Of a stretch of 64,000 nt of DNA, positions 14,662 through 40,768 are shown in pieces. Below the pieces are notes generated by a model. That model was not told where the DNA came from and ran no database searches. It saw nothing but the letters and a program-made list of their open reading frames with translations. Made by a program: the position numbers and the translations under genes. Position 1 is the stretch's first letter, and each line of letters opens with the position of its first letter. This stretch comes from Escherichia phage vb_EcoM-VR5: sequence record NC_028881.1; one strand, 5' to 3'.

Positions 14662-15183
14662 TTAATAACCTCGGTCCTGACGAGCAAAGTTCTCGGCATT
14701 TTTCAGGTAATACAGTTTAAAGATTTCTTCAGCAGTAAGTCCAAGACCCTGGAACATGTTCAGAACGAAATGGAGAATATCAATCATTTCAAATTTAATT
14801 TCGAGCTGGTCTTCAGGAGAGAGTTCGTCGATACGACGATTACGGAATTCAGCATGCTGAGCTTTCCAAGGCTTCCAGCAACTTGAAGCAGCTTTCTCAC
14901 CATTGCTCATACCACCAAGAGAAGTCAGAAGTTCACGGAATTCATCATCAATATAATCTTTCTGATTACGCAGCCAATCAACAACTTCACCTGCAGTAGC
15001 CAAATCATCAGGGTGACGGTTATATTCAGGTTTATCTTTAGCCAAACGGACCTGTAAAGATTTCTGCATATCAAGCATAACCTGCAGTGGGTCTTTATCT
15101 TCGTGAATCAAGGCATTAAAATAAGCTTCCTCAGCTTTATCAACGCCAGCAATCAAACCACTACACTCATTAAAATGTGCCAT
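14662..15183 (-). CDS. 56: dCTP pyrophosphatase (gp56, MazG-like)
   Basis: 173-aa ORF; size and position as T4 gene 56; RBS AGGAAA. Confidence 0.8.
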   Translation of the reverse strand: MAHFNECSGLIAGVDKAEEAYFNALIHEDKDPLQVMLDMQKSLQVRLAKDKPEYNRHPDDLATAGEVVDWLRNQKDYIDDEFRELLTSLGGMSNGEKAASSCWKPWKAQHAEFRNRRIDELSPEDQLEIKFEMIDILHFVLNMFQGLGLTAEEIFKLYYLKNAENFARQDRGY

Positions 15184-15187
15184 TATA

Positions 15188-15844
15188 TTATTTCCTATTA
15201 AAGTTTTCTATCATTCGTCGATAACAAATATCAGGATATCCATTATCGACAGCTATTTTATTAAATTTGGTGCGTTTAGGTTTATTATTATAAACCCATA
15301 ATTCATAAAGCGCATCATAACTATCCCATATTTCTCCTCGCCTAGGATTTGGTAAACCGTATCGAGGTGAATTTTTACCGCTAAATCTTCCTTTTCGAGC
15401 TTTACTCATATTAGCCTTGGCTTCATCGGATATAATTTTATCTTTATGAGCTAGACGCATTTTGGCTTTAGTTTCTTCTGGGGTCTTTTTGCCTTTAATC
15501 CATGACGGCTTGCCATATCTAGGATTATTTTCACCTGTAACTAATAGTGAATTATTTTCCCTTAATGATGCTATAGTTCTGCTAGTTAATTTAACTCCTT
15601 TATTATATCTCATTAAATTAACGGCATGATGCAGACCTTTTACTTCAGGATACATTTTTGTTAAAAGCCTATGGGCTATAAAGTGCTCTCTTGGTAATAA
15701 AGCCACCAAATTATTTTTATCATCGGAACCATTCATACATTTGGGTACAATATGGTGTTCTTCTGTATAATATGGTAAGGACCGCTTGGTACCTCTTAAT
15801 TTTCCATTAGATATTAATTCATTGTATATTTTTTCATAGTTCAT
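15188..15844 (-). CDS. HNH homing endonuclease (freestanding, Mob-like) with NUMOD-type C-terminal DNA-binding repeats
   Basis: 218-aa ORF; HNH motif EEHHIVPKCMNG...NLVALLPREHFIAH; AT-rich; no SD upstream. Confidence 0.8.
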   Translation of the reverse strand: MNYEKIYNELISNGKLRGTKRSLPYYTEEHHIVPKCMNGSDDKNNLVALLPREHFIAHRLLTKMYPEVKGLHHAVNLMRYNKGVKLTSRTIASLRENNSLLVTGENNPRYGKPSWIKGKKTPEETKAKMRLAHKDKIISDEAKANMSKARKGRFSGKNSPRYGLPNPRRGEIWDSYDALYELWVYNNKPKRTKFNKIAVDNGYPDICYRRMIENFNRK

Positions 15845-20923: not shown

Positions 20924-21246
20924 TTCCACCACCTCTTAGATTTAATTTTATCCAGTTCTTCTTGTATTTGCATTGTAACACATTTTTCTACATGAAGCGC
21001 TAGCTCTTCTTTTCGGTCTTCGGAAGGTGTTCCGAAATCAACCGACACTTTTCCATCTTTCTCAATAACAATATTCATCACATAAACGATGTGAGCAGTG
21101 CCATCGGGTAAAGTAAGCATAATTTCCTGCTTAACAGAACCCATTGACTTACGGATTATATCTAATGATTTCTCATAATACAGAGGGTCATAGTGACCCT
21201 CTTCAGTATCTTTAACAAAATTATCTAAATCAGATAAATCAGTCAT
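20917..21246 (-). CDS. hypothetical protein in the position of T4 gene 40
   Basis: 109-aa ORF between uvsX and 41. Confidence 0.55.
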   Translation of the reverse strand: MTDLSDLDNFVKDTEEGHYDPLYYEKSLDIIRKSMGSVKQEIMLTLPDGTAHIVYVMNIVIEKDGKVSVDFGTPSEDRKEELALHVEKCVTMQIQEELDKIKSKRWWKW

Positions 21247-22411
21247 TTAAATCCATCTCTTCTAAATCGTTTTCGATATCAGCAGCGCTTTGAGCGTCCC
21301 CACTCAATTTAACTGCAACGTTCTTAGAGACTCGAGAGTTAATAAGGTCGTTCACCGCATCGTCAACTTCTTTAATAGAATTAATTGCACCAAGCTTATA
21401 CTTATTCTCGATTGCTGCACGGAACGGAGCATGTTTAAACAGTGGTCCCCAGAACTCGACACAATCAGTAGCTTTAGCGCGCCATGATTTTTCTTCTTGA
21501 ACCATTTCACCTGTGGTTTCGTCAAGAAATGCACGATTATACCAGCCAGCTTTAGGTTTGACGACAAAACCAATTTCAGTGGCCATTTCAAGCAGACCAC
21601 TAAACGGATCGATACCACCTTCAAAGTTCACGGTAATTGGGAACGTTGATTTCTCTTTAACCGTACGAGATTTCTCTGCTTTCAAGGTGAAGTCATAACC
21701 GGTGAGCTCAGTACCATCTTTAACCTGGCGTTTAGAAATAAAGAACACGGTAGAAGCAGAATACAGAATACCAGTACCACCACCCATAATCTCTTTAGGA
21801 TACATTCCACCAATTTCCATAGCCGTGTGGTTAATTGCTACGCAAGGGATATCCTTGATGGTCAGATATGGGGTAACGATACGGAACAAAGATTTCAGAG
21901 ACTTAGCACGAGTCATATCACCTACAACTTTCTCGTTCAAAGCATCTTCGGTTTCTTTCTTAGAAGCTGTGTTACCAATGGAGTCGATAAATATAATAAC
22001 CTTTTCGCCACGGGTAATTTCTTCTAATTGGTTAGTCATGTCAACCTTCAGTTGTTCGACTGACTGGATTGGTGTGTGGACCACACGTTCCAGGTCAACA
22101 CCCATTGAACGGAAATAAGATTCTGAAGCACCAAACTCAGAGTCATAGAACAAACAAATTGCGTCTGGATATTTCTTCATATACGCCGCGACCATAGTTA
22201 ATCCAAACAGAGTTTTAAAGTGTTTAGATGGAGCAGCAAAGATTGTCAAACCTGATTGCAAGCCTGCATTCAACGCACCGCCTAATGCAATATTAAGCAT
22301 AGGAATACGAGTAGGAACTTCATCACGCCCATTAAACAATTTGGATTTGGTCAGGTCGGCGGTCATTTTAGAAGTAGAAGCTTTAATCAAACGGGATTTT
22401 AAATCAGACAT
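21239..22411 (-). CDS. uvsX: UvsX recombinase (RecA-like)
   Basis: 390-aa ORF; RecA fold; T4 UvsX is 391 aa. Confidence 0.9.
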   Translation of the reverse strand: MSDLKSRLIKASTSKMTADLTKSKLFNGRDEVPTRIPMLNIALGGALNAGLQSGLTIFAAPSKHFKTLFGLTMVAAYMKKYPDAICLFYDSEFGASESYFRSMGVDLERVVHTPIQSVEQLKVDMTNQLEEITRGEKVIIFIDSIGNTASKKETEDALNEKVVGDMTRAKSLKSLFRIVTPYLTIKDIPCVAINHTAMEIGGMYPKEIMGGGTGILYSASTVFFISKRQVKDGTELTGYDFTLKAEKSRTVKEKSTFPITVNFEGGIDPFSGLLEMATEIGFVVKPKAGWYNRAFLDETTGEMVQEEKSWRAKATDCVEFWGPLFKHAPFRAAIENKYKLGAINSIKEVDDAVNDLINSRVSKNVAVKLSGDAQSAADIENDLEEMDLND

Positions 22412-22488: not shown

Positions 22489-23382
22489 TTAAAGGACCAC
22501 GTCCTCATAACGTGGCATTTCGTACTCGGAATGAATATGGGCACCAAAATAAATGAATTCAGCCAAACCAGGATGGAATACTAAACCCGGGTTCTCATGA
22601 TAAATGATATGTGGTCTTGATTTCAGAATCTGGTAATATTCAACCTTACTCGGTTTGAATTTAATAATCTCTACATCAGGACGATAGTCTCCACGTTTAA
22701 ATGAATCGTTGGGGTCGGTGATATAGAGTCGAGCACCTTCAGCCGCAGCTCGGTCTACAACTCGTTCGAATTGATAGCATTTATCAGAGATACGAAATGG
22801 GTGAAAAATACCATCAATTTTAATAGGCGCTAGACCATCAGAGTAACGCTCAATTACTGCCGGATTAATTACCTTTTGGTCTACAAAAATCTTATCAGAG
22901 GATGCACCTCGTGACACCAGGACGTCTTTCTGGCATTGATTCAGGACTGTAGTATAAATCGAACGTTCGACTGAAGAAACATCAATATCAATAAACTCGT
23001 CGATATAATAACGAGGAACTTCAGGGTCCATTGTGATATTAAAGTTGAATTGTACAGTCTGGGCACCATCATAACCTGTGATATCAGTTACCAACCCTGA
23101 GCAGTCGTAGTATTCGATTAATGAATCGACTACGAACTCGTTTTCAGACCAGAAATGTTTACGGGTTTCATAAGCATTTTCTTTATACCAAAGTGGCACA
23201 AAATTCAGTTCAGGGAATAACTCGATGCACTGATTGATATCGCTCGAATTTCTAGGATAAGCCAGATAATCACCTGGCCGAGCACGGTTTAAATGGAGTT
23301 GAAAATTGCCGTCCTTAAGGACAGCATATTCACCCGTTTCGTAACTACGCATACTGAAAATAGGAACGATAAACAGACTCAT
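22489..23382 (-). CDS. unknown protein occupying the T4 beta-glucosyltransferase slot; candidate DNA-sugar transferase
   Basis: 297-aa ORF; no resemblance to recalled T4 beta-gt; ATGA-coupled to hydroxymethylase gene. Confidence 0.7.
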   Translation of the reverse strand: MSLFIVPIFSMRSYETGEYAVLKDGNFQLHLNRARPGDYLAYPRNSSDINQCIELFPELNFVPLWYKENAYETRKHFWSENEFVVDSLIEYYDCSGLVTDITGYDGAQTVQFNFNITMDPEVPRYYIDEFIDIDVSSVERSIYTTVLNQCQKDVLVSRGASSDKIFVDQKVINPAVIERYSDGLAPIKIDGIFHPFRISDKCYQFERVVDRAAAEGARLYITDPNDSFKRGDYRPDVEIIKFKPSKVEYYQILKSRPHIIYHENPGLVFHPGLAEFIYFGAHIHSEYEMPRYEDVVL

Positions 23383-24077
23383 TTCAGAAAACCTCGGACG
23401 TAGTCAAAATCACGTTCAAATACGTGTGCACTAACCATGGTGTGAGAATACGTACCCAAACCAACACCACACTGCTCTGCAATAAAGGCCATCAGTTTAC
23501 CCTGCAGATAGAAATCAAGCTGCATAACAACGGCACAGTTCTGTGAACGCATATGGGTATGTGCATACAAACGACCGTCACGAATGTAATACGTCACCGA
23601 ATCAGTACAAGGATATTCTAGGGATTCGTCAGAATCAAGGAGAGCTTGGTCTTGTTCTTGGAGAATCTGGAACACAACTCTTCGCGAGTTAGGCTTTTCT
23701 TTAAGCTCTTTAAGTAGGGCTGGGAGCTGGGCCACAATTCGAGGTCCATAGAAAGTGTTGAAGTTTGCAGGCAATACGTCACTTTTCGGCTTATCAATGA
23801 ACTTAGCAACATTAGGGTATTCCTTAAATGCTTCGGAGGCATCAGTACCACCGGAAATCATAAACTTCCAAAAGGATTCAGCGTATTCATAACTAATACG
23901 ATTGATGCGTGGGTCGGTGAACTTGAACGTGCTAGCATCAAGAACTTCTACTGAAGCCGAACCGACTTCATAACAACGGCCGATACGAGAATCTACTGCA
24001 AACTGCGGAGCTTCAAGGATTTCTTCGTTCATTTGTTTAAATGCATTTTCAAAACTAACAGCGGTAATGTGTTTCAT
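23379..24077 (-). CDS. 42: deoxycytidylate hydroxymethylase-like enzyme (thymidylate synthase fold)
   Basis: 232-aa ORF; PNSRR, PCTD nucleophile and Asp 31 residues after Cys align with T4 gp42 NPDSRR, MCTNT, D179; overall divergent. Confidence 0.7.
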   Translation of the reverse strand: MKHITAVSFENAFKQMNEEILEAPQFAVDSRIGRCYEVGSASVEVLDASTFKFTDPRINRISYEYAESFWKFMISGGTDASEAFKEYPNVAKFIDKPKSDVLPANFNTFYGPRIVAQLPALLKELKEKPNSRRVVFQILQEQDQALLDSDESLEYPCTDSVTYYIRDGRLYAHTHMRSQNCAVVMQLDFYLQGKLMAFIAEQCGVGLGTYSHTMVSAHVFERDFDYVRGFLK

Positions 24078-24610
24078 TTATTCACCTTATTTTCAATATA
24101 TTCATTCAGACGTTTTAATTCTACCATATCAACATTAAGCAAATTATTATGGCCGTCATGATTTAAGATTTTAAACACGTTTTCAAAACATGTTTCGTAT
24201 TGTCTGACAGTTAGGTTGAACTCATCTTTAGTTAATTTAATAAGGTCGTCTTCGAAGTCTTCGTCTAACGGATTACGAGTTAAAATAACCTCGATAATGT
24301 TAAATTCAGATTTGAACCCTTTCCAATCTTCCAGTTCTACATAAGGGTCCATTTCACCACGAAGGAATCCCGAGTAAACAATATTACTAGGATACCCACG
24401 GTCTAAGATATAGACAAAATTTGGGTCTAAAAACTTATACAGAGTTTCAACTAGAGCCTTATCATTATCAGTTCCTAATGAAATACATTTGCCATTAATC
24501 TTTTTAGGAAAATCAATAAGGCGGTATTTCTTATCGGATAACAGATTTTTAATTAAAGTAGACTTCCCGGAATTATCCGGGCCGTCTATAACAATGATTT
24601 TTGGATTCAT
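24074..24610 (-). CDS. P-loop nucleotide kinase, thymidylate-kinase-like
   Basis: 178-aa ORF; Walker A IVIDGPDNSGKST; DRGY-type motif YILDRGYPSNIVYSG. Confidence 0.7.
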   Translation of the reverse strand: MNPKIIVIDGPDNSGKSTLIKNLLSDKKYRLIDFPKKINGKCISLGTDNDKALVETLYKFLDPNFVYILDRGYPSNIVYSGFLRGEMDPYVELEDWKGFKSEFNIIEVILTRNPLDEDFEDDLIKLTKDEFNLTVRQYETCFENVFKILNHDGHNNLLNVDMVELKRLNEYIENKVNK

Positions 24611-24990
24611 GGATGATAGGCCTTATAACTATCAAGAGTTCCTTCACGAACCATTTCTTTAAAGTGGTCGGGCCGGATTGCTCGGTCATCGATGATAAAA
24701 GTATAACTCGGCTTGTGTGTAAGCAAATTGTGATATTTCAATCCAATTTTTTCAAGGTTCTTAACCAATGCCGGAACTACTTCAACCAATATTCGGCCAG
24801 GGCCACATGAAGTCATACCACGGGCGGTGAACAATGTAATCTCACACCCTTCATCATAAAGCTTGTTAATCATGGACACCATTTCAGTGTCCGGTTTAAA
24901 GTTTTCATAATCACGGTCATGATTCCAAATCGTGATTGTGTTATCGATATCAAAACATAAATGCGGCTTATTTTCTACTCGATGCGACAT
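24607..24990 (-). CDS. HAD-superfamily phosphatase
   Basis: motif I CFDIDNTIT, motif II TLFTAR, motif IV FIIDDRA; start set at ATG overlapping upstream stop (TAATG). Confidence 0.65.
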   Translation of the reverse strand: MSHRVENKPHLCFDIDNTITIWNHDRDYENFKPDTEMVSMINKLYDEGCEITLFTARGMTSCGPGRILVEVVPALVKNLEKIGLKYHNLLTHKPSYTFIIDDRAIRPDHFKEMVREGTLDSYKAYHP

Positions 24991-26663
24991 TAAATTTTCT
25001 TCCATTGTTTGTGGAGTTCAGTAGAACCTGTAGGTTTATATTTTACACCAGTTTCCTGGTCAAGCAAAACCCACTTATCAGGACAACGAGTAATAATTTG
25101 TGCCGTAATAGGGTCACGAACTTCATCAACGAATTCACCTGTAATAAGCTTACGCTTACGAGGGTGCCGCTTCAGCAGCACACTCAGTTGGTACAAACCG
25201 TTGTAATATGCGCCAAGAGCTTTCAGAGGATTATTCTTAAAGTAACCTGCTAGCGCCATCCAAATAACAGCAATCCAGAGCTTGTGCTTAAATGTACACA
25301 TCGGAATATCGTCTAAAGGCATGACCTTTTCAATATCAACGAATACACGAGTTCCATTACGGGTTAAGCCACCCCATAGAGGGTCTGAGTTAAATTTATC
25401 ATAGCCATCGATAGAATAAAGCACCTTAGCTTCGTCATAAATCGCGGGGCCTTTAGAACTATTACCGAAATAACCACGTGGGTCGATGATTTTAATATCA
25501 CCTTCGTCCGACAGCATAATATTACTGTAGTGCGGGTCGCCATGAATAAGTTGATACGGTTCTTTATGTTCAGACAGAATTTCTAGTGCATGACGAAGAA
25601 GTTTTTCAGGGTCTCCTACCTTGAAGTCGTTAACATGGGTGATGCCCTGTGGAGAAAAGCCTTCAATCAATCCAGCAATAGAAGCATTACGAATCAGGAC
25701 CTTGTCCAATACTTCTTTCTTAACATCAGAATACCATTGCTCATCAGATGGGTTATCGATAGTTCCACCAAATGAACGTAATGCACTAATGACCTTATAA
25801 ACCATGAGCACTTTAGTTTCTTTAGACATAAACCGGTAGGCATCTGCCATGGTGCGACCAAAGATACGTTCCATTTTAATGAATTCACCTGGCGCAAAGT
25901 CTACAATGCTCGGAACGAATTCAGAATCAATAGAATTATACCAATTGATTTCTTTAGATTGAATTTCTTTACCTAATTCGTTGGTTGGTACTTTAATAGC
26001 CAGATTCTCAGTGAATTCTAATTTATTAAATTCACGATTAATTTCAGAATCTTCATGGGCCTTGGCCAGCTTCAGTTTATCACCAACATCAACTACAAAG
26101 TCCAGCTTACGTTCAGACAAATAAACCATTGAATCCAGGTTATCCGCAAGGTCTTCACCATAATTAGAACGGTCGAATCCTGTCCAATTCGCCACCTGAT
26201 ACAAACCAACTACACCGCCACCTGTACCAATTTCACGTAAGTACGGTTCTTCAAATGTAAACCGACAATCGGTCCCATAGGTATAACAGTAGTCGTTATC
26301 CCACTCAACTTTATGGCCTTCAGGAATTATGTCACACCAGTTAAATAGAACGTTATGCCCAATAATATCTTCAGCAATGCAATCGATAGCATGGGCCGAA
26401 CCGTTAGCAACATCCACATTACGAATAGTGAACTTGGGCTTATCGCCTGTAATCATATTAATCGATTTAATATAGCCTTTAACGAGGTCGTTAAATTTAC
26501 TGTGAATAACCAGAATAATTTCATCTGATTGGTTACTATACAAATCATACAAATGCTTTAATACCGTATGTTGTTTATAGTTAACCAATACCTTAGGGAT
26601 TTCATTAGTAATTGGATACAACCGTGAGCCAAGACCTGCGCCTAAAATAACAACCTTTTTCAT
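24990..26663 (-). CDS. bifunctional sugar-phosphate nucleotidyltransferase / APH-ChoK-like kinase
   Basis: N-terminal GAGLGSRLYPIT (NTP-transferase signature); C-terminal HGDPHYSNIML and IIDPRG (Brenner-type kinase motifs); RBS GAGGAA before ATG 26663. Confidence 0.75.
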   Translation of the reverse strand: MKKVVILGAGLGSRLYPITNEIPKVLVNYKQHTVLKHLYDLYSNQSDEIILVIHSKFNDLVKGYIKSINMITGDKPKFTIRNVDVANGSAHAIDCIAEDIIGHNVLFNWCDIIPEGHKVEWDNDYCYTYGTDCRFTFEEPYLREIGTGGGVVGLYQVANWTGFDRSNYGEDLADNLDSMVYLSERKLDFVVDVGDKLKLAKAHEDSEINREFNKLEFTENLAIKVPTNELGKEIQSKEINWYNSIDSEFVPSIVDFAPGEFIKMERIFGRTMADAYRFMSKETKVLMVYKVISALRSFGGTIDNPSDEQWYSDVKKEVLDKVLIRNASIAGLIEGFSPQGITHVNDFKVGDPEKLLRHALEILSEHKEPYQLIHGDPHYSNIMLSDEGDIKIIDPRGYFGNSSKGPAIYDEAKVLYSIDGYDKFNSDPLWGGLTRNGTRVFVDIEKVMPLDDIPMCTFKHKLWIAVIWMALAGYFKNNPLKALGAYYNGLYQLSVLLKRHPRKRKLITGEFVDEVRDPITAQIITRCPDKWVLLDQETGVKYKPTGSTELHKQWKKI

Positions 26664-26723
26664 TATCTGTTCCTCAAGTGAATGTAGGTACATTATACAC
26701 TATTTTTAATAAATTTCTATTGC

Positions 26724-27224
26724 TTAAATCTTATCTTTACCGTATTCCATGCATTGTTCTACTGCAGCGGGCACTTTGGTCTTAAGCTTATTGATTTGTT
26801 TCTTATAATCACGGGCCTTATCAAAGCTTTCGGTTTCTAGCATTTCGTAATAACGAGCTTCATGGATAGAAACCTGCAGATTGATATGGTTTACACACAT
26901 AGCATACAGTTTCTGCTTTTTGTACAAATCATCTTGTCGCTTCATTTCTGCCTGGTGTTTGGCTAGTACCGCTTCTCGCTTAGACTCTTGTTCACGTTGG
27001 AATTCTATTTCACGAGCCGCATATTTACCGCAGTTATTTCCGCATTGGTTGTTAGCACGAGTATAAGTAATGCCTGAACCTGCACGGAACTTAACTTCAC
27101 CATCATACTGCTTCTGTTCAGCAGCAATACGAGCTTTACCTACTTCATCAGCCGTAACAACTTCACCGTATTGGACCGCACAACCAGAGAGTAATAATGA
27201 CGCTGCGATAATTAGCTTTTTCAT
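26724..27224 (-). CDS. putative lipoprotein (166 aa)
   Basis: signal peptide with lipobox LLSGC. Confidence 0.6.
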   Translation of the reverse strand: MKKLIIAASLLLSGCAVQYGEVVTADEVGKARIAAEQKQYDGEVKFRAGSGITYTRANNQCGNNCGKYAAREIEFQREQESKREAVLAKHQAEMKRQDDLYKKQKLYAMCVNHINLQVSIHEARYYEMLETESFDKARDYKKQINKLKTKVPAAVEQCMEYGKDKI

Positions 27225-27370
27225 GATGGTTCCTTAATTAAAACATTCAAATTTGATTTGTAAGATTAACATTACCCAAGCCAAGATAAGAGTTGGAATC
27301 ATTGGTGGGACTGTCACTGCAAAATAAACAGTCATTAACACAAATATGAGTAAGAGTAAACCGGTTATAA

Positions 27371-27607
27371 TCATTGTTTAACCACGATAATCTGTGCGTT
27401 TGTTTTACGTTCGGCTGCGATAGACCAAATCAGTGCAACCACCCACCCAATCATCGTCCAACCTAACAGAAGGTTAAGCACAAAAATTCCACCATTGCTT
27501 CGAGTACCACGTAGTAATGCGATAATCCATGGTAAGAAATAACCGATGAACATAACAGCAAGAGAACCAATACCAAACACACCAGCACCGACGATTAAAG
27601 CTTCCAT
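27371..27607 (-). CDS. two-TM membrane protein, Imm-like
   Basis: 78-aa hydrophobic ORF adjacent to gene 43 as T4 imm. Confidence 0.5.
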   Translation of the reverse strand: MEALIVGAGVFGIGSLAVMFIGYFLPWIIALLRGTRSNGGIFVLNLLLGWTMIGWVVALIWSIAAERKTNAQIIVVKQ

Positions 27608-27671: not shown

Positions 27672-30383
27672 TTAAAAGTCGAACATGTCAAATAACGTTG
27701 CTTTTTTCTCGTAGTCGATTTTAGCAGACTCAGTAAAACCGGTCAGAGGTTTGATAAAGGTCTTTTGGAACAATACGTTGTAGTCCATCCAACGGAGAAC
27801 TTGGTCGCGAATCTGAACTGGAAGCTCAATACCTGACGGCCAGGCCATACAAGCTTCACCAAACGGGTTACCTTCTTTAAGTGGCAGTACATATACCTTT
27901 TCACCATCAACGATACGAGGCATAGTCAAATCACCTGCAGATGCACGCATGTAAGCTAAGCAACCTTTGATGTGGTATGGACATTTAGAACCAGGGAACC
28001 CGCCTTCATTATATTTCTCAATGTTGTTAGCACTTGATACTGCAGCAATGCTTACATAGTCCAGTTCGTTGAATTCTTTATTAAACTGTTTGAAATATTC
28101 TTGCAAAGAAGCCTCGCCTTCTTGAAGCATACGACGGATACATTCTTTCAGAGCTTTCTGAACAGCTTTAGGTGTACTTGATTTCTGGGTTTCGAGACCC
28201 ATGATTTTCAAGTGAGGTTCGGCATAACGGGTGCCTTCCATGTCCCAAACGTTCAGTGCATAACGTTTCTTACCAGTCCAGAATCCACCAAGACCTTTAG
28301 AACCGAGTGGTGGGCCTGCGATAGCTTCTCGGTCCATGAACATCAAGTGTTCTTTATTATTAAGGTATTCAGCTAATTCGCGGAAGGCCTTATCTATAGC
28401 AGGTTCCATACGTTCAGATGCAAACTTACTTAAGAAGTCGACCCAATGGTTGGTATCACGGAATTTATCTTCACCTACTTTATCGATGATTGCATCAGCT
28501 TTAACATAGATGGAGTCCGTATCTCCATAGAGCACGAATTTCTGGTTTTCAGTCTTACACACTCTATTCAGATATTCGTTAACCTTACGTTCAATCCATT
28601 GGAGGGCCATTTGACCAAACAATGTGATTGCTGTAGCGTTACGCAAGTCATAGTAACGGAACCATACGTTACCAAGTGCACCATAAAGGGAGTTGATAAG
28701 CAACTTACGGTTAATCTGAGCGGTGTTACCTGCTACTTCAGTACGTTCGGCTTTGAACAACATTTCTCTTAAAGAAGGCGCTGACAACGATTTAATCTGA
28801 GATTTGATTTCTTCAGAGAAGTCAAATCGATAGTCGATATCCAGTGGACTATCAACAGACAGATTAGGATTTTCTAATGCTTCTTTAATTAACTCACCGT
28901 TACGTTGGGCTGCAAGCATATAACCTTTATGTTCTTTACGTTGTAAGAACACCTTCGTGATTTCTGTAGGAATCACACCATCGCGGTCTTTAAAATACAT
29001 CATGCCGTTAGGAGAGCAACTGTAGGTATCGCTAGGACGCGGAGCAGTTCCGGCAATATATTCATGTATCGGCGCATTAGCGAATGTCCCTGCGATGGTC
29101 TCTGGGCTAATATTCACTTGTCGAATGATACTCGGGTATAGAGATGTAAGGTCGAAACTCATTACATATTTGTAGGCATTAGGAATCGGTTCCTTAACGA
29201 AAGCACCAGGATAAGGTTGAACCATATGCGACCTAGCCTGAGGAATTACCTTACCCTGTTCTTTAAGACTGTTAAAAATGATAGCGTCCCAAGTCTTAAT
29301 AGGGCTGAACACCGACTGAATCTGCATCTTGGCATAGTAACCCATGTCTAGACTCAGAAGAATGAACTGGCGCTTCATATCAATCTGCACAACACGATAT
29401 ACGTCGATAATGTTATAGGAAATATATCGTTGGTGGTTAGTCTCACGTAATTTAGAGATCGGACCATCGTATTTCAACTTACCTACTTTCAATTCATATT
29501 CAGAAACATAATCCAGAGAATAAGATGGTTGGTTGGTAAAGCTGAATTTTTTATAAAGGTCGATATAGTCCAGAACCGAGATACCGAACAGTGTAATGAT
29601 TTCACGAGCACCATACATGTTCTCGATAACTTTAACACGAGTCTTACGATGTGGGCTTAATCGCTTAGCGGTGTTCTCACCAAACAGATTTTTCAGACGG
29701 TTATAAACGTACGGCACGTCAAATGATTCAACGTTCCAACCAGTCAAAATCACAGGAGTTTTCTGTTGCCAGAAGTTTAGGTATTCAAGCATCATTTCTT
29801 CTTCAGAATTAAACGGAAGATAAACGATTTTGTCAATGATTTCCTGTGGAACTTCGTCGCCGCCTTCGTCTTGGAGTTTCTCAGCGATTTTAATCGACCA
29901 CTCTTCGACCGTACCATAAGGTGAAACTAAAAGGTCAAATACATAGAATTTATCGTCAATCGAGTCGTAGTGAGTAATGGCATCGATAGGATGTTTAGCC
30001 TGGGCTGGTTCAGGGAATCCGTCAGGAGATGTTACCTCGATGTCGAAGTTAGCAATACGAATCTTAGAAGAATCATACTTGATTTCTTTACGATAGGTAT
30101 CAGACAAATATGCTAATTTATAGTCGTCCATACCAAGGGCTTCAAGTCCCATATCGTCCATGCGCTTCATCCACTGGGATGCATCCCGCATAGAATTAAA
30201 TTCTTTCTTAATACAACCTTTACCGTAGATGTCAATATATTTTACGGCTTGTTCTGGGTTGGCATGCATAAACATCGTAGGCTTGTAAGGAACTTCACGA
30301 CTACGTTCTTTGCCATTTTTATCGATGTATCGTTCGAGAATATTATCACCGATTTGTTCGACTGTCAAATAGAATTCTTGCAT
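27672..30383 (-). CDS. 43: DNA polymerase (family B, gp43)
   Basis: start at MQEFYLTVEQIG (track ORF has N-terminal extension); exo motif FDIEV, pol motif YGDTDS; strongly resembles RB69 gp43 from memory. Confidence 0.92.
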   Translation of the reverse strand: MQEFYLTVEQIGDNILERYIDKNGKERSREVPYKPTMFMHANPEQAVKYIDIYGKGCIKKEFNSMRDASQWMKRMDDMGLEALGMDDYKLAYLSDTYRKEIKYDSSKIRIANFDIEVTSPDGFPEPAQAKHPIDAITHYDSIDDKFYVFDLLVSPYGTVEEWSIKIAEKLQDEGGDEVPQEIIDKIVYLPFNSEEEMMLEYLNFWQQKTPVILTGWNVESFDVPYVYNRLKNLFGENTAKRLSPHRKTRVKVIENMYGAREIITLFGISVLDYIDLYKKFSFTNQPSYSLDYVSEYELKVGKLKYDGPISKLRETNHQRYISYNIIDVYRVVQIDMKRQFILLSLDMGYYAKMQIQSVFSPIKTWDAIIFNSLKEQGKVIPQARSHMVQPYPGAFVKEPIPNAYKYVMSFDLTSLYPSIIRQVNISPETIAGTFANAPIHEYIAGTAPRPSDTYSCSPNGMMYFKDRDGVIPTEITKVFLQRKEHKGYMLAAQRNGELIKEALENPNLSVDSPLDIDYRFDFSEEIKSQIKSLSAPSLREMLFKAERTEVAGNTAQINRKLLINSLYGALGNVWFRYYDLRNATAITLFGQMALQWIERKVNEYLNRVCKTENQKFVLYGDTDSIYVKADAIIDKVGEDKFRDTNHWVDFLSKFASERMEPAIDKAFRELAEYLNNKEHLMFMDREAIAGPPLGSKGLGGFWTGKKRYALNVWDMEGTRYAEPHLKIMGLETQKSSTPKAVQKALKECIRRMLQEGEASLQEYFKQFNKEFNELDYVSIAAVSSANNIEKYNEGGFPGSKCPYHIKGCLAYMRASAGDLTMPRIVDGEKVYVLPLKEGNPFGEACMAWPSGIELPVQIRDQVLRWMDYNVLFQKTFIKPLTGFTESAKIDYEKKATLFDMFDF

Positions 30384-30440
30384 TTCATTTCCTTTATAGA
30401 CGAGTGATTGTCTTTTGTTTGTTGGTGAATCATTATACTC

Positions 30441-30461
30441 CAAAAAGGGACCGAAGTCCCT
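30441..30461 (-). terminator. terminator-like hairpin between regA and gene 43
   Basis: gggac-ttcg-gtccc + TTTTT, followed by TATAAT. Confidence 0.45.
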
Positions 30462-30471
30462 TTGCTTTATC

Positions 30472-30834
30472 TCAATTACCAATCGTATATTTGGACAACA
30501 ATTCCCAGTCATTTTTCTGTTTAAAGGAAATGACACGGAAGTTATTAGTGATTTCAAACAATTCAGAATCGTCTACAATATCAATAAGTCCCCAATCCTT
30601 AAGAAGCTGGGCGATAGAATCGCGACGTTGGTAGTCTTCACCATCTATATCTACCTGGCGACCATCCATACGCAACATCTCTTTAAAGTGGACAATATAA
30701 TACCGTCCTTGCTTTTGCAAAATGTGACAGGATTGATATAGTTTCTTTTCTTTATTATTAGCGATACCCATACGAGTTAGGGTCTCTTTCACTTTCAAGA
30801 AGTCTTCAGGTTGCTTCAGAGTAATTTCAATCAT
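30472..30834 (-). CDS. regA: translational repressor RegA
   Basis: 120-aa ORF; near-identical to my recollection of T4 RegA (MIEITLK...NNFRVISFKQK). Confidence 0.9.
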   Translation of the reverse strand: MIEITLKQPEDFLKVKETLTRMGIANNKEKKLYQSCHILQKQGRYYIVHFKEMLRMDGRQVDIDGEDYQRRDSIAQLLKDWGLIDIVDDSELFEITNNFRVISFKQKNDWELLSKYTIGN

Positions 30835-36949: not shown

Positions 36950-36970
36950 AAAGGAAGCACTAGGCTTCCT
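36941..36970 (-). terminator. rho-independent terminator upstream of gene 47 region
   Basis: aggaagc-ctag-tgcttcct + TTTTTTGCTTT. Confidence 0.55.
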
Positions 36971-37133
36971 TTCCAATTAATACACCGTACAGAGGTTCAC
37001 GATTAGACGTGAACTTGATGGGTTTATAGGTAATAGTACCTTCATTTTCTGCTTTAATACGAGCGGCTTCAAATTGAAGCATCATCTCATTTTTGTCAGA
37101 TTTAATCTTATCAAAATCCGTCGAACTCGTCAT
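36960..37133 (-). CDS. small hypothetical protein (57 aa)
   Basis: hand-translated MTSSTDFDKIKSDKNEMML...; SD AAGGGG; stop overlaps terminator hairpin. Confidence 0.35.
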   Translation of the reverse strand: MTSSTDFDKIKSDKNEMMLQFEAARIKAENEGTITYKPIKFTSNREPLYGVLIGKEA

Positions 37134-37375
37134 TCATATGACCCCTTAAAAATCTGGATGTTCGTCATTCATTAGCCAGCCGTCCATGTTATCATCGCTG
37201 CCACCACTTCTTAAGTTGATGAGAATCCACCCAAACCTTGGCTACAGGCTCAATCTGAAAAATTCCATCAGATAACCTGCCTACCATTTTGTATTCGGTT
37301 TCAGACTGCTTAATACAGATATTACCGTACGAACGAAGTCTGAAAGCGGCTCCAATAAGAAGCCGTTTAAAGGGT

Positions 37376-37687
37376 TTATTTACTAGCGCCATTGATAATT
37401 TCCCAAATCTGTTTACGTGTAGTTTCCCACATAACTCTAACGATTTCATCGGTAGTCGGTTGTCGGTAAATACCACGCAATTTAATTATAGCATATTTGT
37501 AAGCTTCGAAATTGTTTTCGAGAACAGCACCCTGTGCATGTTTATTAAGACGTGTAATTTCACGAGCATTCTTTTTAAGGATTTTAGCAGCCTGTGAATC
37601 GGCTTCTTTAGCATTGTTCTCTTCTAAACGCTTCTGAGCTTCTTCAATCTGCTTATCAGTCAATTGAGAAATGTCGGTGCTTTGCAT
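37376..37687 (-). CDS. hypothetical protein (103 aa)
   Basis: ORF with RBS AAGGA. Confidence 0.55.
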   Translation of the reverse strand: MQSTDISQLTDKQIEEAQKRLEENNAKEADSQAAKILKKNAREITRLNKHAQGAVLENNFEAYKYAIIKLRGIYRQPTTDEIVRVMWETTRKQIWEIINGASK

Positions 37688-37688
37688 A

Positions 37689-37952
37689 TTAATCCTTGTA
37701 ATTCAATTTTATATAAAAATCTTCGTCAGTAACGTGATAGTTATAAGTTAATGTTCCTTTTTCAGTTTTAATTTCTACCGAATCGGGGTGTTTTGGGTCT
37801 ATTACAATAGGAAGTTTGGCAATATCCTTAAGATACATTTTAAGAACATAAGGAATTGCCGAATACTCTCCATCTACTTCTTCTAAAAGGCCTACCAGGT
37901 TAATCTTGAGTTCCATATAAAAAATCCAGCTCACCAACTTTAGATTCAGCAC
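37689..37952 (-). CDS. hypothetical protein (87 aa)
   Basis: ORF. Confidence 0.5.
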
Positions 37953-38457
37953 TCTTATCAGACCCTGGCGCTTTAACTAAAGAGGTTTCATACTGAGTCA
38001 TTTTGTCGTAAATATCCTGGATAAAAGTTTCATCTGCGATACCTACCATGTCGTCGTCATTAGCGTCATAAACGTTATGGACGAAGTAGCTATATTTCTT
38101 TGCCATTTCTTTACGTTCTTTCTTGATACGCTGAACAAAGGCATTAAAACAAGCCATAGTGATATATGCATGTGGGTTGTCGTATTTTGTTTCGTCGAAG
38201 TTGTGAAGACCTTTAATAGAAGCTTCGATTCCATCAGCAATCATTTCTTGCTTCCAGGATTGGGTATATCCGGAGAAGTTAAAACGTTTACTTAGGCCTT
38301 CAGCAATGAGCATAATAGCCAAGCCGATAACGTCGTTCTGACGAACTATTTTATTAGGGTCGGTATTTTCTCGGAGCTCTGTTTTCCACTGGGTAATGGC
38401 TTTCAGAAGCTCCTTATTATTTACATAGTTATTTTTAGTCAGTTTAATTTCGGTCAT
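37900..38457 (-). CDS. 55: late sigma factor gp55
   Basis: 185-aa ORF; long stretches match my recollection of T4 gp55 ([44 protein letters not shown]). Confidence 0.9.
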
Positions 38458-38480
38458 TGTTACCTCAGATAACTCAAATC

Positions 38481-38520
38481 ATAGGTCTATTATATCATAG
38501 TATTTGGAGACCCGTTTAAA
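38481..38520 (-). promoter_or_regulatory. extended -10 promoter upstream of gene 55
   Basis: TGATATAAT followed by AGACCTATG. Confidence 0.4.
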
Positions 38521-38523
38521 GCA

Positions 38524-38787
38524 TCAACGGAGTAAGCAATAAGCCTGAAATACTGTTTCAAGGATTTGTGTGAACTCAGAATAAGAAATTGTATCAGTGC
38601 ATCCGTGTTCAGACATGTATCCGCAAAATTCTTTAAAAAGACCCGGATATTCACGATGGTTGTATTTGGAGATGTGAGACTTCCATACTAAAGAAGTCTC
38701 GCCACAAACAAACTCTACATCCATACAGTTATCTATTAAGAAAAATCCGAGACCTTCGTAAGCGAGGGTGCTAGATATAGGTTTCAT
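38524..38787 (-). CDS. hypothetical protein (87 aa)
   Basis: ORF. Confidence 0.55.
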   Translation of the reverse strand: MKPISSTLAYEGLGFFLIDNCMDVEFVCGETSLVWKSHISKYNHREYPGLFKEFCGYMSEHGCTDTISYSEFTQILETVFQAYCLLR

Positions 38788-39056
38788 TGTAGGAATCGGG
38801 CTCCTTCTAGTGCATCATCAAGGTTATCAAACTCATCAACGTAATCAATACCACCAACTTCATCCTTTGCATACAGCCAGTACTGTTTAAATTCATATTC
38901 GATAATAAAGTGGTCGCCTTCGATTTGAAGTACGCCAGCATCATTTTCACATACGGTATAACCAACCAGTCGAATGTCGTTCAAGAGTTCGTTTTTCATA
39001 GTAATTGTTTCCAGGTTCTTCTCGTAATTAGAGAGTTTAATTTTAGGTAAAGTCAT
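38784..39056 (-). CDS. hypothetical protein (90 aa)
   Basis: ORF, ATGA-coupled. Confidence 0.55.
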   Translation of the reverse strand: MTLPKIKLSNYEKNLETITMKNELLNDIRLVGYTVCENDAGVLQIEGDHFIIEYEFKQYWLYAKDEVGGIDYVDEFDNLDDALEGARFLQ

Positions 39057-39382
39057 TTCGCAGCCTTAACAATTTTCAGGTCAACGAATTTTTTCTTACG
39101 TTGGTTTTTCATACGTCGAATAGTTTTATCTGTGATTTCACCCGGGTGCCAAGCTTTAGATTCAACACCAAAGGCAGCAACATCAAACTCGTCAAGGATA
39201 TATTGAACCAGGATTTCACGAATACCGTTATGACCGATTTTTTGGTCTTTAGAGCGCATGATTGGTAACAGTTCAGCAACCCATTGGTCAAGAATCTGAG
39301 GAGTTACAAAGCCAGTTTTCATCAGTTCGTTAACTTTATCGAAAGCGAAAGAGTTCAGTACGTTTTTGATTGCTTGTGACAT
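39053..39382 (-). CDS. hypothetical protein (109 aa)
   Basis: ORF, RBS GAGGAAA. Confidence 0.55.
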   Translation of the reverse strand: MSQAIKNVLNSFAFDKVNELMKTGFVTPQILDQWVAELLPIMRSKDQKIGHNGIREILVQYILDEFDVAAFGVESKAWHPGEITDKTIRRMKNQRKKKFVDLKIVKAAK

Positions 39383-39453
39383 AATAATTTCCTCAGTTTA
39401 TTAAAATTTATAATCCGTAGGACCATTATACTCTGGTCCCAAGAGTTTGTAAA

Positions 39454-39654
39454 CTATTTTTGTGCTAATGCACCTTTCCAGCCTTCATACATCATTCCGG
39501 CTGAAAGTAACAAAGCGCCTGAACAGCTTGAGTGTTTGTGATTCCAAAACCAATTCAGAAAAACTTCGTCATCAATACCTTGAGCTATCATATTTTCAAA
39601 GAACTGACGACGAGCTTCGGCAATACGTTGTGACAGTAAAGATTGTGGATTCAT
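39454..39654 (-). CDS. hypothetical protein (66 aa; start at ATG with RBS GAGGAAA)
   Basis: ORF. Confidence 0.5.
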   Translation of the reverse strand: MNPQSLLSQRIAEARRQFFENMIAQGIDDEVFLNWFWNHKHSSCSGALLLSAGMMYEGWKGALAQK

Positions 39655-39661
39655 ATTTTCC

Positions 39662-39955
39662 TCAGCTATAACGATAACATTCGTTTGATTTACGTTTTGC
39701 AACTCGATGAGAAGTATTGTAATCAGGTTCATCGTCGTTGTAAACATCTTTTTTCAGCTTTCTCACTTCTTTACGAAGCTGACGATTCATTTCATTCTTA
39801 ACTTCGGAATCAACACCACCCATACGTTTCCACTTATCAGAACGGAAGATATTCTCTTCAACTTGTTCCTGACTTACACCGTCCGGTGCTTTACGACGTC
39901 CTGAATAACAAAAATCTTTTACAGACAATTCTTTACGACGAATAGTTTTACCCAT
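39662..39955 (-). CDS. hypothetical basic protein (97 aa)
   Basis: ORF. Confidence 0.5.
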   Translation of the reverse strand: MGKTIRRKELSVKDFCYSGRRKAPDGVSQEQVEENIFRSDKWKRMGGVDSEVKNEMNRQLRKEVRKLKKDVYNDDEPDYNTSHRVAKRKSNECYRYS

Positions 39956-39957
39956 AG

Positions 39958-40212
39958 TTACCTCAGCAGTTTGTATCCAATAAGATTTTTGATATACTGA
40001 ATATCTTTGATATCCAAATCCAACTTAAGGTCTTTCAGACGTTCAGCCAGAGTAAGAAATGTTACTCGCTTCCAATTTTTAACAGGGCAGCAATAAGTCT
40101 TAGGCCCATTTGCAATTTCAATATTTTTATCTGTGATGGTGAGAAAAATCAGGCGCTCATCATCAAGGTTCAGGGTGATGACATTTTTCATTGCATGTAA
40201 TTTCAGGCTCAT
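39958..40212 (-). CDS. hypothetical protein (84 aa)
   Basis: ORF. Confidence 0.5.
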   Translation of the reverse strand: MSLKLHAMKNVITLNLDDERLIFLTITDKNIEIANGPKTYCCPVKNWKRVTFLTLAERLKDLKLDLDIKDIQYIKNLIGYKLLR

Positions 40213-40391
40213 GATTTAATTTCCTTTGCTACTGAACAAAACACAGAGCGGTCACACACCATCAACGGGGCATCAGGCCAATTCAAAGGTTGATACCAGA
40301 CATCCAGACTTGATACTTTAGTTACTTGAACAGGATAGCCGTTTACTGAAAAATACTGGTCAACTTTAATTTCTTTATCTTGAATAGTCAT
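40209..40391 (-). CDS. hypothetical protein (60 aa)
   Basis: ORF with promoter motif upstream. Confidence 0.5.
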   Translation of the reverse strand: MTIQDKEIKVDQYFSVNGYPVQVTKVSSLDVWYQPLNWPDAPLMVCDRSVFCSVAKEIKS

Positions 40392-40407
40392 AATGTTCTC
40401 CTCATGT

Positions 40408-40449
40408 GTTGATAGGATAGACTATAACACACAAGGAGAGGAAGTAAAC
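40408..40449 (-). promoter_or_regulatory. early promoter family member
   Basis: GTTTAC ... TATAGTCTATCCTATCAAC. Confidence 0.5.
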
Positions 40450-40450
40450 A

Positions 40451-40768
40451 CTAATCTTCAATTAAATCTCGGTCATAACCAAGTTCAATCAAAAGTGTCT
40501 TAAAAGAAGGAATATTTTCTATTTTCTTATTATCAACAAAGATAACAGGATAACGTATAGCTAAGCTCTTGAAGCCGGCACGTTTGGCCAATGATACTAT
40601 AAGAGGCTTGTCATATACTGCACCTGACGGCGTCTGGTTAATCACAGGATAGAAAGTATATTGAATGGAAAGGGAATTTAGGAGCGATAGAACTGCAATG
40701 CACCCTGGACAGCGCATGACTGTCTCAGGGATACCGTAGATTTCGATTTTAGTTGACTTTTGGTCCAC
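40451..40768 (-). CDS. glutaredoxin-like redoxin (CPGC active site); GTG start
   Basis: IEIYG...CPGC...YPVIFVD glutaredoxin-fold motifs; SD AAGGAG 9 nt before GTG; track ORF N-terminus is an extension. Confidence 0.5.
   Translation of the reverse strand: MDQKSTKIEIYGIPETVMRCPGCIAVLSLLNSLSIQYTFYPVINQTPSGAVYDKPLIVSLAKRAGFKSLAIRYPVIFVDNKKIENIPSFKTLLIELGYDRDLIED

What the first reader, a model, noticed from the sequence alone, without database searches (positions are those of the whole stretch)
22489..26663. Candidate non-glucose DNA hypermodification / activated-sugar cassette between uvsX and gene 43
In T4 this interval holds beta-gt, gene 42 and imm. Here the beta-gt slot is an unrelated 297-aa protein, the gene-42-like hydroxymethylase is divergent, and three extra genes are inserted before the imm-like gene: a thymidylate-kinase-like P-loop kinase (IVIDGPDNSGKST, ILDRGY), a HAD phosphatase (DIDNT, DD) and a 557-aa fusion of a sugar-phosphate nucleotidyltransferase (GAGLGSRLYPIT) with an APH/choline-kinase-fold kinase (HGDPHYSN, IIDPRG). 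All five are translationally coupled (ATGA/TAATG overlaps), so they form one module. An anomeric-kinase plus nucleotidyltransferase pair is the standard salvage route to an NDP-sugar, which would give a DNA glycosyltransferase a donor the host does not make. From memory, RB69-like phages carry arabinosyl-hmC; I cannot confirm that these genes correspond to that system.
Basis: partly seen in the sequence, partly recalled or inferred. Interest (0 to 1): 0.85.

Follow-up and report, generated by a model that had tools for sequence, protein, structure and literature searches.

The report
Arabinosyl-5-hydroxycytosine DNA modification gene cluster
These five overlapping phage genes are a stripped-down copy of the recently described pathway that replaces cytosine in phage DNA with 5-hydroxycytosine and attaches arabinose to it, so the finding is real but already explained by 2025-2026 papers.

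Summary
Five intact, overlapping minus-strand genes lie at 22489-26663, between uvsX and gene 43, in a JS98/JS10-like Dhakavirus (92-94% nt identity). Each matches a gene of the arabinosyl-5-hydroxycytosine clusters studied in phages RB69 and HY126:
- first glycosyltransferase, 66% identity; the model has a GT-B fold
- thymidylate-synthase homologue, 80%
- Tmk-like kinase, 36%
- HAD phosphatase (AfhF-like), 62%
- fused nucleotidyltransferase/kinase (AfhE-like), 43% over the full length

The "divergent gene 42" is not a hydroxymethylase. It carries the D169N signature of flavin/O2-dependent 5-hydroxy-dCMP synthases and is only 24% identical to T4 gp42. The acceptor base is therefore 5-hydroxycytosine, not hmC.

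The base chemistry and the kinase substrate need correcting.

This version is the most reduced one I saw. It has no phage arabinose-5-phosphate isomerase, no U32-family protein and no second arabinosyltransferase, either in the window or in the rest of the JS10 genome. I infer mono-arabinofuranosyl-5-hydroxycytosine built from host arabinose-5-phosphate. No Dhakavirus DNA chemistry was found in the searchable literature. Lee et al. 2026 already list Dhakaviruses among cluster carriers, so novelty is low.

The parts
24990..26663 (-). AfhE-like bifunctional enzyme (557 aa). The N-terminal sugar-1-phosphate nucleotidyltransferase domain is inferred to make UDP-arabinofuranose. The C-terminal APH/choline-kinase-fold domain is inferred to be an arabinose-5-phosphate 1-kinase.
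   Evidence: Pfam NTP_transferase 3.3e-8 and APH 1.6e-5. phrog_4098 E=7e-269. 43% identity over the full length to the HY126 562-aa protein, with GAGLxxRLYPIT, HGDPxxSN and IDPRGYFG conserved. 44%/41% identity to RB69 gp53/gp52. GAGGA lies 7 nt before the ATG at 26663.
24607..24990 (-). AfhF-like HAD phosphatase (127 aa from the ATG at 24990; an upstream ATG at 25005 would give 132 aa). Inferred to convert arabinofuranose-1,5-bisphosphate to arabinofuranose-1-phosphate.
   Evidence: 62% identity to RB69 gp51 and to the HY126 128-aa protein. PDB 9iqw E=2e-53; I take this to be the HY126 protein because 9iqz of the same accession run is titled as HY126. PDB 1xpj E=2e-11. DxDxT (DIDNT) and DD motifs are present. 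TAATG overlap with the upstream gene.
24074..24610 (-). Thymidylate-kinase-fold P-loop kinase (178 aa). Inferred to be a kinase for the modified dCMP; substrate not established.
23379..24077 (-). 5-hydroxy-dCMP synthase (232 aa): a thymidylate-synthase-family, flavin/O2-dependent dCMP C5-hydroxylase.
   Evidence: 80% identity to RB69 gp48 and to the HY126 enzyme. PDB 9iqu/9iqc/9ir2 E~6e-127. 24% identity to T4 gp42. Identical to HY126 at all 13 ThyA active-site positions compared, including C146, W80A, L143E, D169N and N177D.
22489..23382 (-). First DNA arabinosyltransferase candidate (297 aa, compact GT-B fold): homologue of RB69 gp46:47 and the HY126 299-aa protein.
26692..26719 (-). Promoter-like site (TAGAAA-16-TATAAT) just upstream of the cassette. 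Weak evidence only.
   Evidence: Consensus scan and sequence reading. The number of such sites in the region is not above the shuffled expectation (29 found against a mean of 27.8).
14662..15183 (-). gp56 dCTPase/dUTPase. An accessory step outside the flagged span: it supplies dCMP and keeps unmodified dCTP out of the DNA.
   Evidence: 95% identity to RB69 gp56 by tblastn.

Best explanation
The five coupled genes are the Dhakavirus version of the arabinosyl-5-hydroxycytosine (Afh-type) DNA hypermodification pathway.

Base branch. gp56 dCTPase makes dCMP. The 232-aa thymidylate-synthase homologue hydroxylates dCMP at C5 with a flavin and O2, giving 5-hydroxy-dCMP. This is phosphorylated by the phage gp1 dNMP kinase, which lies outside the window, and/or by the cluster's Tmk-fold kinase. 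gp43 then incorporates it in place of C.

Sugar branch. Host arabinose-5-phosphate, from KdsD/GutQ in the Kdo pathway, is phosphorylated at C1 by the C-terminal kinase domain of the 557-aa protein. The HAD phosphatase removes the 5-phosphate. The N-terminal nucleotidyltransferase domain makes UDP-arabinofuranose.

Transfer. The 297-aa GT-B enzyme transfers arabinofuranose to the 5-OH of 5-hydroxycytosine.

Only one such transferase is encoded and no RB69 gp3-type second transferase exists, so the predicted product is mono-arabinosylated 5-hydroxycytosine.

Shown here: homology, signature residues, folds, gene coupling, purifying selection, and absence of the isomerase, U32 and second-transferase genes. 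Shown elsewhere for homologues: 5-hydroxy-dCMP synthesis by RB69 gp48, and the AfhE/AfhF activities of HY126 as reported by Lee et al. Inferred: every activity of the window's own proteins, the host origin of arabinose-5-phosphate, the role of the Tmk-like kinase, and mono-arabinosylation.
Against: No chemistry for any Dhakavirus DNA was found in the searchable literature. The AfhE-like protein is only 43% identical to the characterised HY126 enzyme. It belongs to a separate clade with Klebsiella Marfavirus (80%) and a Proteus phage (71%). The one member of that clade I inspected, Marfa, also has no isomerase in its cluster, so the sugar could differ. The activity of the GT1 family is hypothesised, not demonstrated, in the paper I could read; Lee et al. 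saw no activity of single transferases on 5hoC-DNA. The Tmk-like kinase is very divergent (36%) and its substrate is unknown. I could not read He et al. 2026 or Mahler et al. 2025.
Confidence: 0.8

Rival explanations
1. Same 5-hydroxycytosine base chemistry, but a sugar other than arabinose. The Dhakavirus/Marfavirus clade of the kinase/nucleotidyltransferase would activate a different sugar phosphate, for example another pentose, giving a different glycosyl-5-hydroxycytosine.
For: No phage arabinose-5-phosphate isomerase is present. The AfhE-like protein is about 43% identical to every isomerase-associated homologue and clusters only with Marfavirus and Proteus phage proteins. 5-hydroxycytosine is known to carry hexoses in Rhizobium phage RL38J1 (PMC13326640). 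The Thanatos GT1 homologue (TH1_063) showed UDP-xylose pyrophosphorylase activity in vitro (PMC12838424).
Against: E. coli makes arabinose-5-phosphate constitutively for Kdo (established knowledge), so a phage isomerase is dispensable. The phosphatase (62%) and GT1 (66%) are close to the HY126 proteins. The Thanatos-2 locus also shows no isomerase, yet Lee et al. describe Thanatos as mono-arabinosylated (PMC13326640). Motifs and architecture of AfhE are conserved end to end.
Confidence: 0.1
2. One reading: a divergent gp42-type dCMP hydroxymethylase makes hmC, which is then arabinosylated (arabinosyl-hmC).
For: The original RB69 report (PMC6024577) proposed arabinosyl-hmC. The protein is a thymidylate-synthase-family member with N177D and L143E, like T4 gp42.
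Against: The D169N, W80A and G173V signature is identical to the enzymes shown to make 5-hydroxy-dCMP and differs from T4 gp42, which keeps D169, W80 and G173. Identity is 80% to RB69 gp48 against 24% to T4 gp42. The RB69 structure was revised by NMR/MS in PMC13326640 and called erroneous in PMC13390438.
Confidence: 0.03
3. The sugar genes serve a non-DNA target, for example host envelope or capsule remodelling as the database labels 'capsule biosynthesis protein' and 'phosphoheptose isomerase' suggest, and merely sit next to the nucleotide genes.
For: Database annotations of homologues. The nearest solved relatives of the N-terminal domain act on cell-wall or capsule precursors.
Against: The genes are translationally coupled to the synthase and GT1. 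The same genes are syntenic across Straboviridae whose DNA carries arabinose (PMC13326640). The labels are automated name transfers; the 'phosphoheptose isomerase' is a HAD phosphatase.
Confidence: 0.03

Closest known systems
Escherichia phages HY126 and RB69 (Mosigvirus) arabinosyl-5-hydroxycytosine cluster (Afh system; He et al. 2026 as cited in PMC13326640; Lee et al. 2026)
   Same: Five homologous genes lie between uvsX and gene 43: 5-hydroxy-dCMP synthase (80%), GT1 (66%), HAD phosphatase (62%), bifunctional kinase/nucleotidyltransferase (43%) and Tmk-like kinase (36%). Both also have a gp56 dCTPase.
   Different: The window lacks the arabinose-5-phosphate isomerase, the Peptidase_U32-family protein and the second transferase (gp3, between rIIA and gp39). 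Gene order differs: the Tmk-like gene precedes the synthase instead of following GT1. Mosigvirus DNA is mono- plus di-arabinosylated; mono only is predicted here.
Klebsiella phage Marfa (Marfavirus) cluster
   Same: Same gene order (gp43, AfhE-like, HAD, Tmk-like, synthase, GT1, uvsX). No isomerase in the cluster. Closest AfhE-like clade, 80% identity.
   Different: Marfa keeps a U32-family gene between the Tmk-like gene and the synthase (89% identical to HY126's). The window does not.
Shewanella phage Thanatos cluster (pentose-modified cytosine; PMC12838424; called mono-arabinosylated with a single ara-GT in PMC13326640)
   Same: A single GT1-type transferase, AfhE-like, HAD, synthase and Tmk-like genes between gp43 and uvsX. 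No isomerase in the locus. It is the best precedent for a one-transferase, mono-sugar outcome.
   Different: Thanatos has the U32-family gene. Its identities to HY126 are 48-72% for the GT1, AfhE, HAD and synthase proteins and 44% for the Tmk-like kinase. The host is Shewanella.
T4 glucosyl-hydroxymethylcytosine system (gp42, alpha-gt, beta-gt)
   Same: Same genomic slot and same logic: dCTPase, then a ThyA-family enzyme modifying dCMP, then incorporation, then a GT-B glycosyltransferase.
   Different: T4 uses a folate-dependent hydroxymethylase (D169 and W80 retained), UDP-glucose from the host and no sugar-activation genes. There is no sequence similarity between beta-gt and the 297-aa protein.
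Metagenomic myovirus modules: Flavodoxin_2, D169N synthase, GT1 homologue, Tmk-like kinase (loci L009, L010); and Rhizobium phage RL38J1 hexosyl-5-hydroxycytosine
   Same: The trio of synthase, GT1 and Tmk-like kinase is conserved, adjacent and overlapping. The synthase has the same signature residues.
   Different: No arabinose-activation genes are nearby, and an FMN-reductase-like gene is present. The sugar donor is presumably a host NDP-sugar.

Membership tests
Arabinosyl-5-hydroxycytosine (Afh / RB69-type) DNA hypermodification cluster | ThyA-family 5-hydroxy-dCMP synthase with the catalytic Cys146, N177D (dCMP substrate) and the diagnostic D169N | tested here: met
   Alignments with E. 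coli ThyA, T4 gp42, RB69 gp48 and HY126. 80% identity to the characterised enzymes. PDB 9iqu/9iqc E~6e-127.
Arabinosyl-5-hydroxycytosine (Afh / RB69-type) DNA hypermodification cluster | Base-proximal glycosyltransferase (RB69 gp46:47 family, GT-B fold) encoded next to the synthase | tested here: met
Arabinosyl-5-hydroxycytosine (Afh / RB69-type) DNA hypermodification cluster | Bifunctional AfhE: N-terminal nucleotidyltransferase fused to a C-terminal APH-fold kinase | tested here: met
   Both Pfam domains score above their gathering thresholds. 43% identity end to end with the HY126 562-aa protein, with catalytic motifs conserved.
Arabinosyl-5-hydroxycytosine (Afh / RB69-type) DNA hypermodification cluster | AfhF HAD phosphatase | tested here: met
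   62% identity to the HY126 and RB69 proteins. PDB 9iqw E=2e-53. DxDxT motif present.
Arabinosyl-5-hydroxycytosine (Afh / RB69-type) DNA hypermodification cluster | Tmk-fold nucleotide kinase in the cluster | tested here: met
Arabinosyl-5-hydroxycytosine (Afh / RB69-type) DNA hypermodification cluster | Phage-encoded arabinose-5-phosphate isomerase (RB69 gp55). Present in RB69, HY126 and DLP3 but evidently not universal. | tested here: not met
   No tblastn hit in the window or in JS10 62-171 kb. Phage records with an AfhE-like gene number 366, against 276 with the isomerase. Also absent from the Marfa and Thanatos-2 loci.
Arabinosyl-5-hydroxycytosine (Afh / RB69-type) DNA hypermodification cluster | Additional arabinosyltransferase(s) of the RB69 gp3 type, giving di- or tri-arabinosyl forms | tested here: not met
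   No tblastn hit. The rIIA-gp39 slot holds a 107-aa ORF of unknown function. All 137 Escherichia-named records among the 212 gp3-type hits fall in the >=95%-identity band; none of the 60 records sampled across all hits has a Dhakavirus name.
Arabinosyl-5-hydroxycytosine (Afh / RB69-type) DNA hypermodification cluster | Virion DNA in which C is replaced by arabinosylated 5-hydroxycytosine | not testable with these tools
   Requires LC-MS or NMR of virion DNA. No Dhakavirus data were found in the literature searches.
T4-type glucosyl-hydroxymethylcytosine system | gp42-type folate-dependent dCMP hydroxymethylase (D169 and W80 retained) | tested here: not met
   24% identity to T4 gp42. D169N, W80A and G173V in the window protein.
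T4-type glucosyl-hydroxymethylcytosine system | alpha- or beta-glucosyltransferase homologue | tested here: not met

The most novel reading that the evidence does not exclude
The first sugar may be added before replication. The synthase, GT1 and Tmk-fold kinase form a conserved, overlapping trio, even in distant phages that lack the arabinose genes. T4-like phages already own a gp1 dNMP kinase that phosphorylates 5-hydroxy-dCMP. One reading is therefore that GT1 glycosylates the mononucleotide and the dedicated Tmk-fold kinase phosphorylates the bulky glycosyl-5-hydroxy-dCMP, so that the polymerase incorporates an already glycosylated nucleotide. Lee et al. state that their data cannot tell nucleotide-level from DNA-level first arabinosylation, and they saw no single-enzyme activity on 5hoC-DNA. 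A second unexcluded reading concerns oxygen. Dhakaviruses lack the U32-family protein that other clusters conserve at 82-89% identity. If that protein is an O2-independent hydroxylation factor, like RlhA, TrhP and UbiU/V of the same family, Dhakavirus DNA modification would be strictly oxygen-dependent.
Probability: 0.15. Interest if true: 0.75.

Novelty: already known. Interest (0 to 1): 0.3.

Why it matters
The cluster determines what the phage's DNA looks like to restriction enzymes, CRISPR nucleases and type IV (modification-dependent) systems. That bears on host range and on the use of JS98/CLB_P2-type phages in therapy. The pathway itself was worked out in 2025-2026 for Mosigvirus, Acinetobacter and Serratia phages, so this window adds a member rather than a mechanism. 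Its value is as a natural minimal version. Five genes plus gp56 appear sufficient, which suggests that the phage isomerase, the U32-family protein and the second transferase are accessory. It also gives concrete predictions: mono-arabinosyl-5-hydroxycytosine, dependence on host arabinose-5-phosphate, and possibly dependence on oxygen.

Tried and rejected
- The promoter/terminator scan of 21-31 kb found no more sites than shuffled sequence (29 against 27.8). The TATAAT-containing site upstream of the cassette is therefore only suggestive.
- A weak tblastn match of the RB69 HAD protein to 14869-15090 (E=0.007) falls inside the gp56 dCTPase ORF. I treated it as chance.
- I looked for a second transferase among the large unannotated ORFs of the window with Pfam and PHROGs. 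All belong to conserved T4-type families of unknown function, homing endonucleases or known replication genes, and none is a recognisable GT. Pfam also misses GT1 itself, so this negative result is weaker than the tblastn result with RB69 gp3.
- He et al. 2026 (Nat Chem Biol) and Mahler et al. 2025 (Cell Host Microbe) are not held. Their results are cited only as reported in PMC13326640 and PMC13390438.
- A flavodoxin-like FMN reductase, found next to the synthase in distant phages, has no homologue in the window.
- The ESCO10 annotation under the best nucleotide hit is clearly mis-registered and was not used.

Full report
**What is there.** The window is a T4-like phage of the JS98/JS10 group (genus Dhakavirus). 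The 5.3 kb around the finding matches about 50 such genomes at 90-94% nucleotide identity over its full length.

Between uvsX (21239-22411) and gene 43 (27672-30557), all on the minus strand, the genes run in this order of transcription (sequence):
- imm (27371-27607)
- a 45-aa hydrophobic ORF (27237-27374)
- a 166-aa ORF with a lipoprotein signal (26724-27224)
- the five flagged genes: 557 aa (24990-26663), 127/132 aa (24607-24990/25005), 178 aa (24074-24610), 232 aa (23379-24077) and 297 aa (22489-23382)

The junctions are TAATG, ATGA, ATGA and ATGA, and the ATG at 26663 follows a GAGGA. T4 has segA, beta-gt, 42, imm and imm.1 in this interval.

**Identification.** Pfam recognises a thymidylate-synthase domain in the 232-aa protein. 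In the 557-aa protein it finds an NTP_transferase domain followed by an APH kinase domain. The 178-aa protein gives only sub-threshold P-loop hits, and the 297-aa and 132-aa proteins give nothing.

Direct comparison with RB69 and with HY126, the phages in which the pathway was studied experimentally, gives a one-to-one match:

| Window protein | RB69 / HY126 counterpart | Identity |
|---|---|---|
| 297 aa | RB69 gp47+gp46 (one gene split by a sequencing error) / HY126 299 aa | 68%/65% / 66% |
| 232 aa | RB69 gp48 / HY126 238 aa | 80% |
| 178 aa | RB69 gp45 / HY126 182 aa | 37% / 36% |
| 132 aa | RB69 gp51 / HY126 128 aa | 62% |
| 557 aa | RB69 gp53+gp52 / HY126 562 aa, end to end | 44%/41% / 43% |

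The GAGLxxRLYPIT, HGDPxxSN and IDPRGYFG motifs are conserved in the 557-aa protein. Two window proteins match members of the 9iq*/9ir2 run of PDB accessions: the synthase matches 9iqu/9iqc/9ir2 (E about 6e-127) and the phosphatase matches 9iqw (E=2e-53). Only 9iqz of that run is explicitly titled as a phage HY126 glycosyltransferase, so I infer that the others are HY126 proteins as well.

**The base is 5-hydroxycytosine, not hmC.** Lee et al. (PMC13326640) showed by MS and NMR that RB69 and DLP3 DNA carries arabinose linked by an ether bond to 5-hydroxycytosine. They showed that RB69 gp48 and DLP3 gp80 make 5-hydroxy-dCMP from dCMP using O2 and a flavin. They also showed that Asn at the position of E. 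coli ThyA Asp169 marks this activity.

In my alignments the window protein has Cys146, L143E, N177D and D169N. It is identical to the HY126 enzyme at all 13 active-site positions compared, including W80A and G173V. T4 gp42 keeps W80, D169 and G173. Identity to T4 gp42 is 24%. An independent paper calls the earlier arabinosyl-hmC assignment for RB69 erroneous (PMC13390438).

**The other parts.**
- *Sugar genes.* According to Lee et al., summarising He et al. 2026, HY126 AfhE is both an arabinose-5-phosphate kinase and a UDP-arabinose pyrophosphorylase, and AfhF is the Mg-dependent phosphatase that turns the 1,5-bisphosphate into the 1-phosphate.
- *Selection.* All five genes are under strong purifying selection against JS10 (dN/dS 0.015-0.048).
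- *dCTPase.* The gp56 dCTPase lies at 14662-15183.

[quoted passage not shown] None of these has a tblastn match in the 64-kb window or in JS10 positions 62-171 kb. Together those two sequences stand in for a whole Dhakavirus genome (annotations).
- The rIIA-gp39 slot holds a 107-aa ORF.
- The alpha-gt slot between genes 47 and 55 holds no ORF of 140 aa or more.
- Across the phage collection, the AfhE-like protein occurs in 366 records and the isomerase in 276.
- The window's AfhE-like protein forms its own clade with Klebsiella Marfavirus (80%) and a Proteus phage (71%). It is about 43% identical to all others.
- Marfa has the same gene order and no isomerase in its cluster, but keeps the U32 gene.
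- The Thanatos-2 locus also shows no isomerase, and Lee et al. describe Thanatos as mono-arabinosylated with a single transferase.

I therefore infer that the window's five genes are a minimal form of the system. It would draw arabinose-5-phosphate from the host Kdo pathway (established knowledge: E. coli KdsD and GutQ) and add a single arabinose.

**The conserved core.** In two distant metagenomic myoviruses, the GT1 homologue sits between a D169N synthase and a Tmk-like kinase. A flavodoxin-like gene lies upstream, and no arabinose genes are nearby. Lee et al.'s table shows the same trio in the hexose-bearing Rhizobium phage RL38J1. The Tmk-fold kinase is therefore tied to the modified base rather than to the sugar. 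Its exact substrate is open. RB69's gp1-type kinase already phosphorylates 5-hydroxy-dCMP, which leaves room for the pre-replicative glycosylation reading given as the novel case.

**Verdict.** It needs correction on the acceptor base and on the kinase substrate.

The system is already described. Lee et al. name Dhakaviruses among the genera with syntenic clusters. I found no measurement of Dhakavirus DNA in the searchable literature. The mono-arabinosyl prediction and the dispensability of the isomerase, U32 and second-transferase genes are modest additions that can be tested.

Noticed in passing
L008:10896-12056 (HY126), L011:7787-8947 (Marfa), L012:11428-12564 (Thanatos-2); absent from the window: The Peptidase_U32-family protein is the best-conserved protein of the cluster in other phages: 89% between HY126 and Marfa, and 82% between HY126 and Thanatos-2, against 72-80% for the synthase. 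Thanatos TH2_068 has a Cys-rich C-terminus. The gene is cleanly missing from the Dhakavirus cluster. From my own knowledge, U32-family members (RlhA, TrhP, UbiU/V) act in O2-independent hydroxylation, including 5-hydroxycytidine in rRNA. It may therefore be an anaerobic route to 5-hydroxycytosine. No paper in the library combines the terms U32, hydroxycytosine and phage.
   Followed up: partly
window 36960-37900 and 38457-41382: There is no ORF of 140 aa or more between genes 47 and 55, the alpha-gt slot in T4. There is none between gene 55 and endonuclease VII either, where T4 carries nrdH, nrdG and nrdD. JS10 annotation elsewhere shows only nrdA and nrdB. This phage group seems to lack the anaerobic ribonucleotide reductase.
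   Followed up: partly
window 26724-27224 (-): A 166-aa ORF with a lipoprotein signal (MKKLIIAASLLLSGC), phrog_1754 of unknown function, lies between imm and the cassette. Thanatos-2 has a lipoprotein-like ORF (TH2_061) in a similar position next to its imm-like gene. It diverges faster than its neighbours (91% aa identity to JS10, dS 0.73). Possibly a superinfection-exclusion factor.
   Followed up: no
window 27237-27374 (-): A 45-aa hydrophobic ORF starts in an ATGA overlap with the imm stop codon. It is homologous to RB69p054 (54% identity), which in RB69 and HY126 sits between the AfhE gene and the isomerase gene.
   Followed up: no
window 24074-24610 (-): The Tmk-like kinase is as far from the Mosigvirus homologue (36%) as from homologues in unrelated metagenomic phages (37-38%), while its neighbours are 62-80% identical to Mosigvirus. 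It also sits at a different place in the gene order. This suggests replacement or relocation of the gene in the Dhakavirus/Marfavirus lineage.
   Followed up: partly
L009:6739-9594 and L010:6426-9576: Distant metagenomic myoviruses carry a compact module of Flavodoxin_2 (FMN-reductase-like), D169N synthase, GT1 homologue and Tmk-like kinase, without sugar-activation genes. This fits the flavin dependence of the hydroxylase and use of a host NDP-sugar donor.
   Followed up: partly
window 15188-15844 (-): A 218-aa homing-endonuclease ORF (phrog_655) lies immediately upstream of the gp56 dCTPase gene. That gene is unusually close to RB69's (95% aa identity) compared with the rest of the region.
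   Followed up: no
OM386655.1 (phage ESCO10), best nucleotide hit: The annotated features under the match (rIIA, rIIB, endonuclease IV) do not correspond to the genes actually there. The record's annotation appears offset.
   Followed up: no
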